The notes below the pieces were generated by a model. The model searched no databases. It worked only from the letters and a program-made list of their open reading frames with translations, and was not told the origin of the DNA. A stretch of 64,000 bases of DNA, from the IMG/VR virus record IMGVR_UViG_3300042465_009257, positions 64,001-128,000 of that record; one strand, given 5' to 3'. The first letter of the stretch is position 1. The number at the start of each line of letters is the position of its first letter. The stretch is from a virus. A program made the translations under genes and the position numbers. Shown here in pieces: positions 24,425-28,928 of the stretch.

Positions 24425-24702
24425 TTGTTTTTTACGATAAACGCGATTATTGGACTTGTCAATGGAATATATAATGGAAAACCTGCGATAAGGCAAATCC
24501 CGAGAGATAGCCAAAGATTATGGCACAATTGGCATTTCCACAAGTTGAAAATTAAATCTGCACAAATTTTTTCAGCGGCGCGACGACTTTGCATCCAAAT
24601 CAGAAGCCTAGTTCTGAAATCTTCAAAAAGTGTAGACTCATGGGTTACAAAATTTAAATAAGACAGTAAAATGCCTACGCAAATAATTAGTTCTAAATTC
24701 AT
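24406..24702 (-). CDS. small membrane protein (DUF1360-like)
   Basis: Hydrophobic segments and L..CQLCHNLW motif. Confidence 0.55.
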   Translation of the reverse strand: MNLELIICVGILLSYLNFVTHESTLFEDFRTRLLIWMQSRRAAEKICADLIFNLWKCQLCHNLWLSLGICLIAGFPLYIPLTSPIIAFIVKNKCLNPT

Positions 24703-25388
24703 ACATCTTGTAAACCTTCTTTTAGCTCCGAGTCAACCCATTTTTCCATTTTTCTCACCATCTCGCCGCCTTCTTTCCACAAACCAGAATTTTCCTTCAT
24801 TACACGTTCCACCTCTAAACGTGGAATCGACTCTCCATTCTCAAATTTGCTAAAATCATGCCAGCGGAATTGAACATCAGCAGCTTTGCGGATTAGTGGG
24901 TCATTTTTCTCTTCCTCGCTGTTCGCTGGCTCTAGAACATGGAATTGCCCATACCAGTCCTTGCTGTCATATCTTTCAACGTGGACGATTTTCCCACCAT
25001 TAGATTTTACAAATCCAAGCTCGTCGCCGCCGCCAAATTCCGCAAAACGCAAATCCGTAATAAATCTTACTTGCGGTCCTTCTGGGGAAAGGAGAGTATC
25101 TCGGATTTTATTCAACCAATACTGCCCCTTACTATCATTTCTGCGGAGCTTGCCATATTGAACAAGCAATGGCCGAACCCTTGTCTTCTCTTCAGTAACC
25201 TCGGTAAACGCCGAAAATCCAAACTTATCAGTTATAAAATGGTCCAGGTCTCTCTTCAATTCGTCGGCGAAAGCCCATCGCCCGCAGGTGATTCCTTCTT
25301 CTTTGAGAAAATCAGAGGCGAATCTGTAAAAAGAGTCCTTGCCCGATCGCCCGACCCCCGAAAGGGCTATAATTTTAAATGATTTCAT
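24699..25388 (-). CDS. deoxynucleoside monophosphate kinase (T4 gp1-like)
   Basis: P-loop SGVGRSGKDS, AFADELK, R.LLVQYG, ITDLRF..E; start ATG 25388. Confidence 0.85.
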   Translation of the reverse strand: MKSFKIIALSGVGRSGKDSFYRFASDFLKEEGITCGRWAFADELKRDLDHFITDKFGFSAFTEVTEEKTRVRPLLVQYGKLRRNDSKGQYWLNKIRDTLLSPEGPQVRFITDLRFAEFGGGDELGFVKSNGGKIVHVERYDSKDWYGQFHVLEPANSEEEKNDPLIRKAADVQFRWHDFSKFENGESIPRLEVERVMKENSGLWKEGGEMVRKMEKWVDSELKEGLQDV

Positions 25389-25394
25389 TCCTTT

Positions 25395-25424
25395 ATTATA
25401 GGTGGAAACGAAAGAAAAAGTCAA
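25395..25424 (-). promoter_or_regulatory. sigma70-type promoter TTGACT-N18-TATAAT
   Basis: 6 nt before the kinase ATG. Confidence 0.75.
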
Positions 25425-25570: not shown

Positions 25571-25729
25571 ATGAATCACCGAATTAAAACTAAACGCTAT
25601 AATTTTTGCTTTGACCCGAAAATTGACGAACTCTTGAAAAAAATTAAAGCAGAAACTTCAATAGGATTAACGAAAATTGTGGAGTTAGCTGTTGTTGATT
25701 TTGCCGAAAAGAAAGGAGTTTCTTTATGA
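25571..25729 (+). CDS. ribbon-helix-helix DNA-binding protein (52 aa), copy 2
   Basis: Not in the ORF track. MNHRIKTKRYNFCFDPKIDELLKKIKAETSIGLTKIVELAVVDFAEKKGVSL; ATGA overlap with the nuclease ORF. Confidence 0.8.
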   Translation: MNHRIKTKRYNFCFDPKIDELLKKIKAETSIGLTKIVELAVVDFAEKKGVSL

Positions 25730-26523
25730 TCGGTGTCGTTTTTAACATGAATATCGAATCTCTTGCGATTTGCCCAAGAACCAACGGAATTTACAAAATC
25801 ACAAATACGAAAACAGGAAGATTCTATATTGGCCGAGCAGAATACAAGAAAGGTTTTTTTCGCCGGTGGTATCACCATAGGTGGCAACTTAGAAAAAATA
25901 TCCATGAAAATCCTCATTTGCAAAACTCTTATAACAAATATGGAGAGTCTTGTTTCACCTTCGAGATTCTTGAAATTAAAGACTATGGAGATCCGTTAAT
26001 AGATCTAGAGTCAGAATATATCATAAATTTAAAAGCCATGTACTTTGAAGACGGGTATAATCTTACGAATGAAAGGTTTGCCGCAAAATATCCTAAAATA
26101 TACAGAGAAAATCATCATAACTCAAAAGAATTTGAACTGCTTGACCCAGAAGGAAATTTAATTAAAGGCAGGAATTTAAGTCAATTCTGTGAAGAACTAG
26201 ATGTGGGCGTAGGAGCCATGTGGGATGTCATCCACGGAGATAGAAAATCCTACAAAGGATTCAAATCTCCCAATCCCGAATTTCACGTAGTTAAAAAAGA
26301 GTATCGCTTGCTCTCGCCCGAAAAAGAATTGTTCGTATTTGACAACGCCGCAGAATTCGCGAGAAAGATAGGGGTAAACAAACGTTCTATACACAAAGTA
26401 TTAAAAGGGGAAAGGTCTAATGCCGAGGGCTACCATCTTGAAAATCCATTACCAGAACATCAAAGAAATCTTGATAATTATTTCAATAGGAAGCATCTCT
26501 CTGATCGAATCAACTTTCAATGA
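25726..26523 (+). CDS. GIY-YIG homing endonuclease (I-TevI/Seg-like)
   Basis: GIYKITN...FYIGRA...RRW..H...L....H.N..LQ..YNKYG...F.FEILE...E..I...GYN; two C-terminal HTH-like repeats. Confidence 0.88.
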   Translation: MIGVVFNMNIESLAICPRTNGIYKITNTKTGRFYIGRAEYKKGFFRRWYHHRWQLRKNIHENPHLQNSYNKYGESCFTFEILEIKDYGDPLIDLESEYIINLKAMYFEDGYNLTNERFAAKYPKIYRENHHNSKEFELLDPEGNLIKGRNLSQFCEELDVGVGAMWDVIHGDRKSYKGFKSPNPEFHVVKKEYRLLSPEKELFVFDNAAEFARKIGVNKRSIHKVLKGERSNAEGYHLENPLPEHQRNLDNYFNRKHLSDRINFQ

Positions 26524-26674
26524 ATCCGTCCAAATCCTTTTTTAGCTCATCAGCAAAAGCCCAGCGGCCACATGAAATTCCCTCCGTTTCTAGAAATTCC
26601 GAAGCGAAGCGGTAAAAAGAGTCCTTCCCCGCCCGACCGACGCCAGAGATTCCGATAATTTTAAATGGTTGCAT
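26510..26674 (-). pseudogene. truncated 5' copy (54 aa) of the dNMP kinase
   Basis: MQPFKIIGISGVGRAGKDSFYRFASEFLETEGISCGRWAFADELKKDLDGFIES*; 41/52 aa identical to the start of the full kinase. Confidence 0.85.
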
Positions 26675-26680
26675 TGATGA

Positions 26681-26710
26681 ATTGTATCGGGCTTTTGTGC
26701 GGAAAGTCAA
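26681..26710 (-). promoter_or_regulatory. sigma70-type promoter TTGACT-N18-TACAAT of the kinase remnant
   Basis: 6 nt before ATG 26674; same geometry as 25395-25424. Confidence 0.75.
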
Positions 26711-26731
26711 TCTTAGAATTTTTAAAATTAA

Positions 26732-26758
26732 ATTCCTTTTCTGCATATTCGCCTGTAA
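26732..26758 (+). promoter_or_regulatory. class II promoter ATTCC-N17-TGTAA
   Basis: Upstream of the PolA-like gene; followed by TTGACT-N17-TTTAAT (26765-26793). Confidence 0.55.
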
Positions 26759-26800
26759 AAGAACTTGACTTATTTGATTTCCGACTTTTTAATTACTGTG

Positions 26801-28345
26801 ATGCCTAAAATGAATTACTCTCTGGTAAACCCCGATAAAACGATTCTCAAAAATGAAAACATGATTCGAACAATAGGGTATGGGGGAGAGGGGACCATTG
26901 CTGGAGGGAGGGAGAGGGTGTCTCTTTATAAGGGGAGGTTTAGAGAAGTACAAGAAGTAATAGAGGGGAGGTCTATACTTAGTAATGATGTAGATTGGGA
27001 ATTTAAAGAGAAATCTTTCTTAATCCCTTCAGACTTTTCTAATAATGAGCTTCTTAGCCTTGGCTTGAAAGAGAAACATATTGCGAATGCTATGGTTTTT
27101 CTTTCCTTATTAAGGATTTCAACAAAGTACAAAGAGGTTGTTCTGAGGGATGTTAATCCATTCAGTAGAATTAACAGTATAGTTCTTTCGGAATTTATGT
27201 TAACTCTTGGCTCCGGTACGAAAGACATGTTGAAAAAATTAAGCATTGCACAATGGATTGAGATTGACCATTCTTACCAAGCAGGAATCAAATCAAAAGG
27301 ATATCGTCTTGGGAAAAGATTTGAAAACTCAAAATGGATTTCCGCAAATTGGAAAGAAAGTCTTGAAAAATTTGTCCCAGGTGTCCTGCAAGGAGGTTAT
27401 ATTTCTAGGAGCAGAGATGTTTTGTATGGACTCTGGGATAGAGCTTGTATATATTTTACCAACTGGCAGGCTATGGCTGACGGCCCTTTAAAGGAAATCT
27501 GCAAAAGAACGTCAGAAATAGGCCGTAAATTGATCGTAAGATACTGTGAGGCTCTGACTAAGGAAATTAATACAAACGCTGTAGAGCATATCAAATGCCC
27601 AGCAAATCAAGCATCTGTAGAAAATGGATGGACACTAGAGAAACAAATTCAAAATTATTGGGATTCTTTGTCGTATTTTGACGGTAAAAGTTTTTCTGTT
27701 ACCTGTCACGACGAAAGGTTTAAGTTTTTTACTTACCGTTTGTATTCAAATGTTGTAAATTTAAAATCTGAGTTTCGCCAATTTCTAGAACTAGATGGAC
27801 AGCAAATGGTGAACGTGGATATCCAATCCTGCCAAGTGGCTTTACTGGCGACATTCTATAACACTGAAGATTTAGTGGAAAAAGAGAAATTCATCAAAAT
27901 TATTTGCGAAAAAGATATTTATCTATTTATCGCGGGAGATAAAATTGAGCGGAAACAAGCGAAATCTGACTTTTTCTATATCATGTTCGACAAGAATTGT
28001 AACCAAAAAGGAGAAACTTGCCGCCGATTTAAAGAGGAATTTCCAATCTTAACTCAAAGGATTTACGACGAAAAGAAAAGAAATGGTTATAAAAGTGTAG
28101 CTCGTCTAATGCAGACAAAAGAAGCTTCTATTATGATATTAGGAGCATTGAATAAACTCCTTTTCGTAAATGAAATTGAAGCTTTTTCAATCCACGACTC
28201 TATCTTTTGTCTTCTTAAAGACGTAAAATTAGTAGAAGAAACTATCCGCTCCTTCTTTACAAATCAAATGGGCTTCTGCCCAGCAATTAAAGTGGAAGCG
28301 CCCAGAGTGGATGAATCTGCCAACCGTATTGGGCAGCAATCATAA
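26801..28345 (+). CDS. minimal family-A polymerase-like protein with putative winged-helix N-terminal region
   Basis: YRLYS...FRQFLELDG..MVNVDIQSCQ (motif A), RKQAK...IMF (motif B), IHDSI (motif C); no exonuclease motifs; start ATG 26801 inferred from promoter spacing. Confidence 0.68.
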   Translation: MPKMNYSLVNPDKTILKNENMIRTIGYGGEGTIAGGRERVSLYKGRFREVQEVIEGRSILSNDVDWEFKEKSFLIPSDFSNNELLSLGLKEKHIANAMVFLSLLRISTKYKEVVLRDVNPFSRINSIVLSEFMLTLGSGTKDMLKKLSIAQWIEIDHSYQAGIKSKGYRLGKRFENSKWISANWKESLEKFVPGVLQGGYISRSRDVLYGLWDRACIYFTNWQAMADGPLKEICKRTSEIGRKLIVRYCEALTKEINTNAVEHIKCPANQASVENGWTLEKQIQNYWDSLSYFDGKSFSVTCHDERFKFFTYRLYSNVVNLKSEFRQFLELDGQQMVNVDIQSCQVALLATFYNTEDLVEKEKFIKIICEKDIYLFIAGDKIERKQAKSDFFYIMFDKNCNQKGETCRRFKEEFPILTQRIYDEKKRNGYKSVARLMQTKEASIMILGALNKLLFVNEIEAFSIHDSIFCLLKDVKLVEETIRSFFTNQMGFCPAIKVEAPRVDESANRIGQQS

Positions 28346-28571
28346 GGGCATCTTTTAGAGGGATAGGAACTTGTGTCGGCCCGAAAGCTCCATCTTCGTC
28401 CTCAAAACCCGCTGACCAGCAAATATCATTTCCATTAAATTTTCCGAACTGTGGGCGAAGGCTCATCAAGTAAACGGTCATGTTTGGATCTGGGAAATCT
28501 TCTTTGTCAACGTCTCTCCAGTAATCTGGTGCCGCGACATTATCCCACAAATTTACTTTTTGATCTTCCAT
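28287..28571 (-). CDS. hypothetical protein
   Basis: 94 aa; own promoter TTGACT-N17-TAGAAT at 28580-28608. Confidence 0.6.
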   Translation of the reverse strand: MEDQKVNLWDNVAAPDYWRDVDKEDFPDPNMTVYLMSLRPQFGKFNGNDICWSAGFEDEDGAFGPTQVPIPLKDALMIAAQYGWQIHPLWALPL

Positions 28572-28604
28572 ACCGCTTGATTCTAAATTATTTTTTAAAT
28601 AAAG

Positions 28605-28928
28605 TCAAGTCATAAACGGTACAGCATGTCCATCAGCAACAATTAATTCATTTAAATTAACTTCATCTAAATATACAGTCGCCAGCCACCTTCCGTATTT
28701 ATCTGTAGGATTTTTGAAAGTTTCAATGGTAACTTCTTTTCCAACTGGTAACTTCGTTTTGACGTAAGCTGTTGCTTCTGAACCTCCTAAAGCATTTCTC
28801 TCTGGGGTATTAATTCCAATGAGTCTCACGCGAACCTCATGATTGATGCGAAATCCAAGAGACACGAAAAAGTCAATAGTGTCACCATCGACGACTCGCT
28901 GAACAGTAGCTTTATATTTGTAGTACAT
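28605..28928 (-). CDS. thermonuclease (SNase) family protein
   Basis: VVDGDTI, VRLIGINTPE, DKYGRWLA, N..IV..GHA. Confidence 0.9.
   Translation of the reverse strand: MYYKYKATVQRVVDGDTIDFFVSLGFRINHEVRVRLIGINTPERNALGGSEATAYVKTKLPVGKEVTIETFKNPTDKYGRWLATVYLDEVNLNELIVADGHAVPFMT

What the first reader, a model, noticed from the sequence alone, without database searches (positions are those of the whole stretch)
26801..28345. Stand-alone minimal family-A polymerase-like gene in a phage that already has DnaE, epsilon, primase and DnaB
Seen: recognisable motifs A (VDIQSCQ), B (RKQAK) and C (IHDS), no exonuclease motifs, and a winged-helix-like segment (MLKKLSIAQWIEIDHSYQAGIKSKGYRL). The gene is on the opposite strand near the junction of the replication and virion regions and has two candidate promoters. 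Known: this fold is shared by PolA and T7-type RNA polymerases. Inference: probably not the replicase; it could be an origin-specific primase or initiator, a specialised RNA polymerase, or a mobile passenger.
Basis: partly seen in the sequence, partly recalled or inferred. Interest (0 to 1): 0.7.

Follow-up and report, generated by a model that had tools for sequence, protein, structure and literature searches.

The report
Accessory minimal family-A polymerase in phage
A 173-kb uncultured phage that already has a full DnaE-type replication kit also carries a stripped-down, proofreading-less relative of DNA polymerase I with its catalytic residues intact, always paired with a tiny gene of unknown fold; phage polymerases of this kind were noted in 2024 (divPolA2) but none has been tested at the bench.

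Summary
ORF 26801-28345(+) is real and encodes a 514-aa protein. Its predicted fold matches family-A polymerases best: Aquifex Pol I at Z 13.1, T7 DNAP 12.3, Klenow 11.9, T7 RNAP 9.5.

The residues of motifs A, B and C are nearly invariant in 151 relatives. There is no exonuclease domain. The N-terminal region is winged-helix-like, on weaker evidence.

Standard Pfam models miss the protein. It belongs to a large unnamed family, with 1550 clusters at E<=1e-3. The catalytic core of that family is homologous to the 'divPolA2' phage polymerases of Yutin et al. 2024 (hhalign 98.4%, E 5e-15). The N-terminal half differs, and motif C reads HDS rather than HDE.

New here:
- In 8 of 8 loci the gene sits next to a ~94-aa gene whose confident model matches no known fold. 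In 7 the two converge with overlapping 3' ends.
- The pair is a divergent island (46-75% nt identity) between flanks up to 99% identical in a sister phage.
- A phage late-type promoter motif precedes the gene in both phages.
- The neighbouring GIY-YIG cassette is a separate insertion.

Most likely it is an active, non-replicative, DNA-templated polymerase, either a primer maker or a short-patch DNA polymerase. An RNA polymerase is not excluded. I class it as a new variant of a known kind, of moderate interest.

The parts
26801..28345 (+). Gene for a 514-aa minimal family-A-like polymerase. Residues 1-69 are a disordered Gly/Arg-rich tail. About 70-195 is a winged-helix-like domain. About 200-310 is a helical region, possibly a reduced thumb. 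Residues 311-499 are the palm-fingers core. An alternative TTG start lies at 26765.
   Evidence: ORF; model; fold matches to Pol I; invariant residues; homology to divPolA2; residue mapping to E. coli Pol I.
27815..27838 (+). Motif A (VNVDIQSCQ region). D340 is the predicted metal ligand. Q345 sits at the position of the Klenow steric gate E710.
   Evidence: alignment. D340 is kept in 149/151 and Q345 in 144/151.
27950..27988 (+). Motif B in the fingers (R384-x3-K388-x3-F392-x3-F396), aligned to Klenow R754, K758, F762 and Y766.
28190..28201 (+). Motif C, I-H465-D466-S467. D466 is the second predicted metal ligand. Ser replaces the Glu of DNA Pol I, as in T7-type and mitochondrial RNAPs.
   Evidence: In one search: H 147/151, D 149/151, S 123/151, and never E.
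27227..27310 (+). Winged-helix-like segment (residues 143-170). It comprises a helix at 140-149 followed by a beta-hairpin at 153-170. The consensus L...G.IE.D..Y..G..S.GYR is kept across the wide family.
   Evidence: secondary structure; TubR, ORC2 and Nse winged-helix hits, Z 6.2-6.5; consensus.
28287..28571 (-). Partner gene of 94 aa, convergent with the polymerase gene. The 3' ends overlap by 59 nt. The model is confident but matches no known fold or family.
   Evidence: present in 8/8 loci; pLDDT 87; no fold match; no family.
26732..26758 (+). Late-type phage promoter motif ATTCC-N17-TGTAA, one mismatch from TTTCC-N17-TGTAA. It ends 42 nt before the ATG.
   Evidence: 17 matches against 8.0 +/- 2.9 expected; a perfect copy at the same place in sister phage L005.
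26765..26793 (+). Weak sigma-70-like site TTGACT-N17-TTTAAT. It is conserved in L005 and ends 7 nt before the ATG.
   Evidence: Read. The consensus scan did not report it.
28580..28608 (-). Sigma-70-like promoter TTGACT-N17-TAGAAT, 9 nt upstream of the partner gene's ATG. It is identical in L005. A near-consensus equivalent is present in L006.

Best explanation
The gene encodes a catalytically competent but heavily reduced member of the family-A (Pol I / T7 RNAP) polymerase superfamily. It has a palm-fingers core, no proofreading domain, a short helical region where the thumb would be, and an N-terminal winged-helix-like DNA-binding domain behind a disordered Gly/Arg-rich tail.

It is an accessory enzyme, not the replicase. 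The phage has its own DnaE, exonuclease subunit, DnaB, primase and UvsX.

**Shown:**
- the fold;
- the conserved catalytic residues;
- homology of the core to the divPolA2 phage polymerases;
- a conserved pairing with a ~94-aa protein of unknown fold;
- a late-type promoter motif upstream.

**Inferred mechanism.**
- The winged-helix domain, possibly helped by the small partner, places the low-processivity core on a specific DNA site or structure.
- There the enzyme makes short DNA-templated products.
- The products are most likely DNA. The steric-gate position is an invariant Gln, isosteric with the Glu of DNA polymerases, and the rNTP-selecting Tyr of T7 RNAP is Phe.
- It would then act either as a primase-polymerase, in the manner of the SCCmec CcPol-MP pair, or as a gap-filling or repair polymerase late in infection.
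For: **Fold.**
- Foldseek's top 50 are all Pol I-type enzymes, with E from 4e-6.
- VIA-align gives Z 13.1 (Aquifex Pol I), 12.3 (T7 DNAP) and 11.9 (Klenow) over residues ~220-503, with 262-265 residues aligned.

**Catalytic residues.**
- R313, D340, Q345, K388, Q438, E441 and D466 are invariant in 90 sequences. They are kept in 144-150 of 151.
- They map to Klenow D705, E710, R754, K758, F762, Y766, Q849 and H881-D882.
- The 'TGR..NL' motif upstream of motif A is also kept.

**Family.**
- There are 1550 representative clusters at E<=1e-3.
- The core is homologous to divPolA2: hhalign 98.4%, E 5e-15.
- A direct HMM search also hits the Aeromonas phage, ICP1 and Barba18A proteins.

**Non-replicative role.**
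- DnaE, exonuclease subunit, primase, DnaB and UvsX are present.
- The gene is single-copy.

**Partner.**
- It is adjacent in 8/8 loci, down to 33% polymerase identity and in otherwise different neighbourhoods.
- Pair and flanks have different histories: 46-75% against 96-99% nt identity.

**Precedent.**
- An exo-less A-family polymerase becomes a DNA primase once a small partner supplies template binding (PMC7581432, PMC10061031).
- T7 and N4 RNAPs need an added DNA-binding domain to start de novo (PMC7581432, discussion).
Against: - No biochemical data exist for any member of the family.
- DNA versus RNA product is unsettled. Motif C is HDS, as in T7-type RNAPs, and never HDE.
- The only PDB sequences the family HMM reaches are mitochondrial RNAPs and N4 RNAPII, weakly and at motif C only.
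- One family member nearly reaches the Pfam RNA_pol cut-off: 21.1 against 22 bits.
- The partner is not an OB fold (best Z 2.8). It is transcribed convergently rather than in an operon, so the CcPol-MP analogy is loose.
- The partner could equally be a regulator or inhibitor.
- The winged-helix assignment rests on Z 6.2-6.5 matches, which are below the level the tool calls safe.
- A late-type promoter fits poorly with origin priming early in replication.
- The phage already has a DnaG-type primase.
Confidence: 0.6

Rival explanations
1. It is a single-subunit RNA polymerase, or a maker of RNA primers. The winged-helix domain recognises a promoter or origin, and the core starts RNA chains de novo, as T7 and N4 RNAPs do. 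If it is expressed late it might even be packaged for the next infection, as N4 vRNAP is.
For: - Motif C is HDS, as in T7 and mitochondrial RNAPs.
- N4 RNAPII matches at Z 9.7 with the lowest rmsd (3.0 A over 157 residues). T7 RNAP matches at Z 9.5 and yeast mtRNAP at 9.3.
- Family member P0095 scores 21.1 bits on Pfam RNA_pol, against a cut-off of 22.
- The authors of divPolA2 raise the same possibility (PMC11348598).
- No T7-type RNAP was found elsewhere in the genome, though that search's control did not ring.
Against: - DNA polymerases match better, at Z 12-13 against 9-10.
- hhalign to E. coli Pol I spans the whole core (E 1e-3). Against T7 RNAP only motif C aligns (E 0.06).
- Motif A has Pol I spacing, with an invariant Gln where T7 RNAP has Gly (recalled).
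- The Tyr that T7 RNAP needs for rNTP selection (Y639, recalled) is Phe in 116 of 151 members.
- Earlier notes of this scan attribute the phage's late promoters to a phage sigma factor working with the host RNAP. I did not check this.
Confidence: 0.2
2. The polymerase gene and its small partner form a selfish two-gene cassette, a TV-Pol-like self-replicating passenger. The polymerase would serve the cassette's own spread or maintenance rather than the phage.
For: - The polymerase gene runs against the flow of almost all phage genes, here and in L008, L009 and L010.
- The pair occurs in unrelated neighbourhoods in different phages.
- It forms a sharply bounded divergent island between conserved flanks.
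- divPolA2 genes sit in variable neighbourhoods, sometimes with 2-3 paralogs per genome (PMC11348598).
- TV-Pols were proposed to replicate transposons, including one inside phage Ma-LMM01 (PMC2579912).
Against: - No integrase, transposase, resolvase or helicase lies beside it.
- No flanking direct or inverted repeats were found.
- The genome has a single copy.
- It sits at the same locus in the sister phage. It is more diverged than its flanks, the opposite of a recent transfer.
- The nearby GIY-YIG/RHH cassette is a separate insertion that L005 lacks.
- Neither the A2 nor the A5 HMM hits anything in Ma-LMM01.
Confidence: 0.12
3. It is an arms-race module. The polymerase-like enzyme and its partner would act in phage-phage or phage-host conflict, for example by making decoy or blocking nucleic acids, or by excluding competitors, rather than in genome replication or repair.
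For: - The pair diverges far faster than its neighbours: 65% aa identity, against 100% for the adjacent SNase-like nuclease.
- The two genes are convergent and each has its own promoter-like site, a layout seen in some conflict systems.
- The partner has a novel fold.
Against: - Neither protein hits PADLOC.
- No nearby defence or anti-defence genes were recognised.
- Fast divergence can also come from allele swapping by recombination.
Confidence: 0.08

Closest known systems
divPolA2, a divergent second PolA of barbaviruses, ICP1-like Vibrio phages and Aeromonas phages (Yutin et al. 2024, PMC11348598)
   Same: - The palm-fingers core is homologous: hhalign 98.4%, E 5e-15 over 193 columns.
- There is no exonuclease domain and no canonical thumb.
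- It is encoded in addition to a regular replicase.
- It lies outside the replication gene cluster.
- It is uncharacterised, and the same DNAP-or-RNAP question is open.
   Different: - The N-terminal halves do not align. Ours has a winged-helix-like domain, which is kept across the wide family.
- Motif C is HDS here, against HDE/FDE in divPolA2.
- The replicase here is DnaE, whereas in barbaviruses it is PolB.
- The ~94-aa convergent partner was not found within 1-3 kb in five of the divPolA2 loci (L014-L018); around L002 no convergent small gene is annotated.
TV-Pol family (Iyer, Abhiman and Aravind 2008, PMC2579912)
   Same: - It has the same minimal architecture as defined there: a conserved Arg before the palm, two catalytic Asp, a fingers RxxxK motif, and no nuclease fusion.
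- It occurs in a phage that keeps its own replication enzymes.
   Different: - There is no D5-like helicase fusion or neighbour, and no integrase, resolvase or transposase.
- The family HMM detected no sequence link in Ma-LMM01, a phage reported to carry a TV-Pol.
CcPol-MP primase-polymerase of SCCmec (Bebel et al. 2020, PMC7581432; Rice 2023, PMC10061031)
   Same: An exo-less A-family polymerase paired with a ~100-aa protein. This is a precedent for such a pair making DNA primers de novo.
   Different: - CcPol is recognisable as PolA by standard models. Ours is not.
- MP is an OB fold in the same operon, followed by a helicase. Our partner has no OB fold (Z<=2.8), is convergent, and has no helicase nearby.
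T7 / N4 / mitochondrial single-subunit RNA polymerases
   Same: - Same superfamily fold (Z 9.3-9.7).
- Motif C is HDS.
- An extra N-terminal DNA-binding domain is present.
   Different: - It is half the size or less.
- Motif A has Pol I spacing, with Gln rather than Gly.
- The motif B Tyr is Phe.
- Pfam RNA_pol does not match.
Bacterial DNA polymerase I (Klenow/Taq polymerase domain)
   Same: - It is the best structural match (Z 11.9-13.1).
- The core motifs align in order.
   Different: - There are no 5'-3' or 3'-5' exonuclease domains.
- PF00476 does not match at E<=10.
- Three residues differ from Klenow: E710 is Gln, Y766 is Phe, and E883 is Ser.

Membership tests
Family-A DNA polymerase (Pfam DNA_pol_A, PF00476) | Match to the family profile above its curated cut-off | tested here: not met
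   There is no Pfam hit at E<=1. PF00476 has no hit in the whole phage genome at E<=10, while 10 control genomes rang.
Family-A DNA polymerase (Pfam DNA_pol_A, PF00476) | Right-hand palm-fingers fold, with motifs A, B and C in order and two catalytic Asp | tested here: met
   Z is 13.1 to 11.9 against Pol I-type structures, and Foldseek gives E 4e-6. D340 aligns to D705, R384/K388 to R754/K758, and D466 to D882. These are kept in 131-149 of 151.
Family-A DNA polymerase (Pfam DNA_pol_A, PF00476) | Glu steric gate in motif A and Glu after the motif C Asp (HDE) | tested here: not met
   Q345 stands in place of E710 (144/151 Gln). S467 stands in place of E883 (S 123, A 16, G 8, never E).
divPolA2 (PMC11348598) | Sequence homology of the catalytic core to barbavirus, Vibrio phage and Aeromonas phage divPolA2 | tested here: met
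   Profile-profile hhalign gives 98.4%, E 5e-15. Against the single sequence AUR84708 it gives 90%, E 1.5e-6. The A2 HMM hits L018, L016, L014 and L015.
divPolA2 (PMC11348598) | Encoded alongside a regular DNA polymerase, with no exonuclease | tested here: met
   DnaE plus an exonuclease subunit are in the window. The protein itself has no exonuclease domain.
divPolA2 (PMC11348598) | The same N-terminal globular domain | tested here: not met
   The hhalign alignment starts only at residue ~284 of the query and column ~206 of divPolA2. The N-terminal halves are not aligned.
TV-Pol (PMC2579912) | Minimal core: a conserved Arg before the palm, two Asp, and fingers RxxxK | tested here: met
   R313 is kept in 150/151, D340 in 149, D466 in 149, R384 in 131 (plus K 9) and K388 in 149.
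TV-Pol (PMC2579912) | Fusion or linkage to a D5-like helicase, or to an integrase, resolvase or transposase | tested here: not met
   The neighbours are a dNMP kinase, a GIY-YIG cassette, the 94-aa partner and an SNase-like nuclease. None of the required genes appears in L005-L010 either.
TV-Pol (PMC2579912) | Sequence relatedness to a named TV-Pol | tested here: inconclusive
   The A2 and A5 HMMs find nothing in the Ma-LMM01 genome, even with filters off. However, I could not identify which Ma-LMM01 ORF is the TV-Pol, and I had no Sputnik or SCCmec sequence to hand.
CcPol-MP / PolA-SSB primases (PMC7581432, PMC10061031) | A small OB-fold ssDNA-binding partner in the same operon, with a helicase | tested here: not met
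   The partner model (pLDDT 87) has no OB match, with best Z 2.8. The partner is convergent rather than co-transcribed, and no helicase is adjacent.
T7-like single-subunit RNAP (Pfam RNA_pol, PF00940) | Match to the family profile | tested here: inconclusive
   P0001 has no hit. The genome search was blank, but its controls did not ring. Family member P0095 scores 21.1 bits against a cut-off of 22, at motif C only. hhalign to T7 RNAP gives E 0.06.
T7-like single-subunit RNAP (Pfam RNA_pol, PF00940) | Motif B Tyr (T7 Y639) for rNTP selection | tested here: not met
   The aligned position, F396, is Phe in 116 and Tyr in 28 of 151. The mapping goes through Klenow Y766. The equivalence to T7 Y639 is from established knowledge and was not aligned here.

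The most novel reading that the evidence does not exclude
The winged-helix-tethered minimal family-A core and its novel-fold ~94-aa partner form a previously unrecognised two-component, primer-independent polymerase of phages. It would be a third route to priming, or a new kind of small RNA polymerase, alongside DnaG and AEP primases. Its family is very large (more than 1500 clusters) and entirely untested. It would be expressed late and might act at a specific DNA site.
Probability: 0.2. Interest if true: 0.8.

Novelty: new variant of a known kind. Interest (0 to 1): 0.5.

Why it matters
Family-A polymerases are among the best understood and most used enzymes. Even so, this reduced branch, with more than 1500 clusters at 50% identity and members in cultured phages such as ICP1, has no assigned activity.

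A roughly 300-residue core that keeps all catalytic residues helps define the minimal working unit of the superfamily. The core carries Gln at the steric gate, Phe for the motif B Tyr, and HDS in motif C.

This mix of DNAP-like and RNAP-like signatures makes the family a natural test case for how sugar selection and de novo initiation arise.

The conserved small partner gives a concrete two-protein system to express and assay. If the pair primes or transcribes, it would add a new component to phage replication or transcription, and possibly a compact new enzyme for biotechnology.

Tried and rejected
**Family and sequence searches that found nothing**
- P0001 had no hit in Pfam, NCBIfam or PADLOC. 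The only PHROG hit was weak, to an unknown family (phrog_4756, E 1e-3).
- phmmer against PDB sequences found nothing relevant.
- tblastn against INPHARED phages found nothing. megablast of the region found nothing.

**Context searches**
The long contigs of homologs (34-44 kb) could not be fetched, so contexts come from short metagenome contigs only.
- Viral-contig scans with P0001, A1, the dNMP kinase, P0036 and P0100 found no relatives.
- The genome-contig scan with A1 found none. A2 and A6 were too diverse to scan with. No host or prophage context was obtained.
- The protein atlas gave only unnamed clusters.

**Readings rejected**
- 'The GIY-YIG cassette and the polymerase form one mobile unit.' Sister phage L005 has the polymerase and partner next to an intact dNMP kinase, with no cassette.
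- 'The partner is an SSB-like OB fold.' No fold match was found.
- 'Inactive pseudo-enzyme.' The catalytic residues are nearly invariant.
- 'Replicase.' A full DnaE set is present.

**Other**
- No repeats bound the gene pair.
Full report
**1. The observation**

The window holds an open frame at 26765..28345 on the + strand. Its ATG at 26801 gives a 514-aa protein, P0001. Homolog P0003 starts at the matching position, so the finding's coordinates are right.

Almost every other gene of the window lies on the minus strand.

The record is a 173,358-bp IMG/VR virus genome rated complete. The window covers 64001-128000 of it, and the gene is single-copy.

The phage encodes its own replication and nucleotide-metabolism genes:
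- DnaE (PHP and Pol III alpha domains), a polymerase exonuclease subunit, a primase and a DnaB helicase;
- a UvsX-like recombinase and an SbcD-like exonuclease;
- ribonucleotide reductase and a dNMP kinase.

**2. What the protein is**

Standard libraries miss it. Pfam, NCBIfam and PADLOC gave nothing, and the only PHROG hit was weak and to an unknown family. PF00476 and PF00940 find nothing in the whole genome at E<=10.

An AlphaFold2 model built on nine homologs has mean pLDDT 73.6. Residues 1-69 are disordered and the C-terminal half is mostly above 85.

Foldseek against the PDB returns only Pol I-type enzymes at the top (Taq, Klenow, Bst, Aquifex, apicoplast Pol), with E from 4e-6.

VIA-align against 48,161 chains gives these matches:

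| Structure | Z | Note |
|---|---|---|
| Aquifex Pol I | 13.1 | 265 residues, rmsd 4.1, model 220-501 |
| Apicoplast Pol | 13.1 | |
| T7 DNA polymerase | 12.3 | |
| Pol nu | 12.0 | |
| Klenow | 11.9 | |
| N4 RNAPII | 9.7 | |
| T7 RNAP | 9.5 | |
| Yeast mtRNAP | 9.3 | |

Unrelated folds begin at about Z 7.6.

Residues ~76-185 separately draw winged-helix proteins: TubR at Z 6.5, the ORC2 winged-helix domain at 6.4, and Nse1/3/4 at 6.2. The model shows helix-helix-hairpin there. These scores are below the level the tool regards as safe, so the winged helix is likely but not proven.

**3. The family**

An exhaustive phmmer search of 1.84 billion representatives gives 1550 clusters at E<=1e-3, and 204 at E<=1e-10. 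Most share only residues ~311-499. Typical lengths are 380-560 aa.

In a 90-sequence alignment (A2), R313, D340, Q345, K388, Q438, E441 and D466 are invariant. The consensus reads 'TGRxFxNxTNL...R..L...LVExDIxxxQPxLL', 'RxxxKxxxFxxxF' and 'IHDSI'. Counts over 151 proteins confirm this.

hhalign of A2 against the E. coli Pol I polymerase domain aligns the whole core in order, with E 1e-3:

| This protein | Klenow |
|---|---|
| D340 | D705 |
| Q345 | E710 |
| R384 | R754 |
| K388 | K758 |
| F392 | F762 |
| F396 | Y766 |
| Q438 | Q849 |
| H465-D466-S467 | H881-D882-E883 |

Against T7 RNAP only motif C aligns, with E 0.06.

The family HMM, run against PDB sequences, reaches only mitochondrial RNAPs (best E 0.006) and N4 RNAPII, again through motif C alone. 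One member, P0095, scores 21.1 bits on Pfam RNA_pol, whose cut-off is 22.

The family is therefore Pol I-like across the core and RNAP-like at motif C.

**4. Literature**

Three published groups bear on this.

- *TV-Pols* (PMC2579912) are minimal A-family polymerases of transposons and viruses. They are defined by a reduced thumb, a conserved Arg, two Asp and a fingers RxxxK, and they are never linked to nucleases. They were proposed to be primase-polymerases, and one was noted inside phage Ma-LMM01, which keeps its own replication enzymes.
- *CcPol-MP* of SCCmec (PMC7581432, PMC10061031) is the only member tested. CcPol alone extends primers. With the small partner MP, an OB fold, it makes DNA primers de novo.
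- *divPolA2* (PMC11348598, section 'Two novel phage PolAs') is a second, exo-less, thumb-less PolA of barbaviruses and other phages. It sits in variable neighbourhoods, and its authors suggest a repair DNAP or an RNAP.

I fetched the paper's representative, AUR84708, and five relatives from ICP1, Barba18A, two Aeromonas phages and another Vibrio phage.

Profile-profile hhalign of A2 against these gives 98.4% probability and E 5e-15 over 193 core columns. The N-terminal halves do not align.

The A2 HMM also hits these proteins directly.

No link to anything in Ma-LMM01 could be detected.

The protein is thus a relative of divPolA2, with a different N-terminal domain and a different motif C. It has the TV-Pol type of architecture but not the TV-Pol gene context.

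**5. Surroundings**

The adjacent + strand genes are an RHH gene (25571-25729) and a GIY-YIG/NUMOD endonuclease (25726-26523).

A 78-aa fragment at 26510-26746(-) is 70% identical to the N-terminus of the dNMP kinase at 24699-25424(-).

A metagenome contig from a sister phage, L005, shows the ancestral order: intact dNMP kinase(-), polymerase(+), 93-aa gene(-), SNase-like nuclease(-). It has no endonuclease cassette. The cassette is therefore a separate, later insertion. Earlier notes of this scan reached the same reading.

**6. The partner gene**

Immediately downstream of the polymerase gene, and convergent with it, lies a 94-aa ORF at 28287-28571(-).

Homologs of it sit beside the polymerase gene in all eight loci available (window, L005-L011). 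In seven they are convergent, with 3' ends overlapping by 4 to 71 nt. In L010 the partner is divergent and upstream.

This holds down to 33% polymerase identity, and the other neighbours differ between loci.

The partner's model is confident (pLDDT 87, pTM 0.80). It matches nothing in the PDB: best VIA Z is 2.8, and Foldseek finds no hit at E<=0.001. It matches no Pfam, PHROG or PADLOC family.

It was not found near the megaphage homologs or the divPolA2 genes examined.

**7. Evolution and expression**

Between the window and L005, nucleotide identity is as follows:

| Region | Identity |
|---|---|
| SNase-like gene | 96-99% |
| dNMP kinase, 3' part | 83-92% |
| Polymerase plus partner | 46-75% |

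The boundary is sharp and falls at the partner's start. The pair is a divergent island, not a recent transfer.

Upstream of the polymerase gene lies ATTCC-N17-TGTAA (26732-26758). This is one mismatch from the TTTCC-N17-TGTAA motif that precedes virion genes here. Five exact copies occur, all upstream of minus-strand genes, and matches with at most one mismatch number 17 against 8.0 +/- 2.9 expected.

L005 has a perfect copy at the same spot. Earlier notes call this the phage's late promoter class, read by a phage sigma factor. I did not test that.

The partner has its own sigma-70-like site, identical in L005 and near-consensus in L006.

**8. Mechanism**

Shown: an intact family-A-type active site, no proofreading domain, an added N-terminal domain, a conserved partner, and a full separate replisome.

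Inferred: a low-processivity, DNA-templated polymerase that is placed on a particular DNA site or structure by the N-terminal domain, the partner, or both.

I favour DNA products for two reasons.
- The invariant Gln at the steric-gate position is isosteric with the Glu that excludes the 2'-OH in Pol I.
- The Tyr that T7 RNAP needs for rNTP choice is Phe here.

Both arguments rest on established knowledge of Klenow E710 and T7 Y639, not on a test made here.

The HDS motif C and the RNAP-leaning sequence hits keep the RNAP reading alive at about 0.2.

A selfish-cassette reading (about 0.12) is weakened by the lack of any recombinase or repeats, and by the stable locus.

**9. Verdict**

The gene is a new variant of a recently noted but untested kind. 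The partner gene and the winged-helix-like domain are the new elements.

Limits of this work:
- no complex prediction could be run;
- no bona fide TV-Pol sequence was available for direct comparison.

Noticed in passing
window 25571-26746 and 24699-25424: An RHH plus GIY-YIG/NUMOD homing-endonuclease cassette sits in the dNMP kinase locus. It left a 78-aa fragment of the kinase's N-terminus (70% aa identity to the working copy). Sister phage L005 has an intact kinase and no cassette.
   Followed up: partly
window 28605-28928 (-) and L005 2607-2930: A 107-aa SNase-like nuclease (Pfam SNase, E 5e-11) is 100% identical in protein between the two phages, while the genes on either side differ by 15-50%. 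This suggests strong conservation or a recent exchange of this one gene.
   Followed up: no
window 26876-26971: A G-rich stretch at the 5' end of the polymerase gene encodes a disordered Gly/Arg-rich tail (GYGGEGTIAGGRER). Similar G-rich, Gly/Arg-coding starts occur in L009 and L010. Whether the constraint acts on the protein or on the DNA is open.
   Followed up: no
L014 3001-4305 (Vibrio phage ICP1, MW794165.1 57667-58971): The well-studied cholera phage ICP1 carries a divPolA2-type gene annotated only as a hypothetical protein. It lies among small early-looking genes (between GP97.1 and GP103). This offers a tractable system for testing the family's function.
   Followed up: partly
L012 2318-3511 and L013 1880-3136 (megaphages LR756501, LR745206): Huge uncultured phages of 630-735 kb carry 397-418-aa members of the same family. 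They keep the winged-helix-like consensus and an HDS motif C, but the 94-aa partner is absent nearby.
   Followed up: partly
L008 2646-2690 (minus strand): A TTTCA-N17-TGTAA site lies just upstream of the partner gene in a distant phage. This hints that the late-type promoter class of this phage is shared by a wider group of phages.
   Followed up: no
window 28234-28282 (-): Two terminator-like hairpins on the minus strand lie just after the partner gene's stop, inside the 3' end of the polymerase ORF. The two convergent transcripts would therefore overlap only briefly.
   Followed up: no
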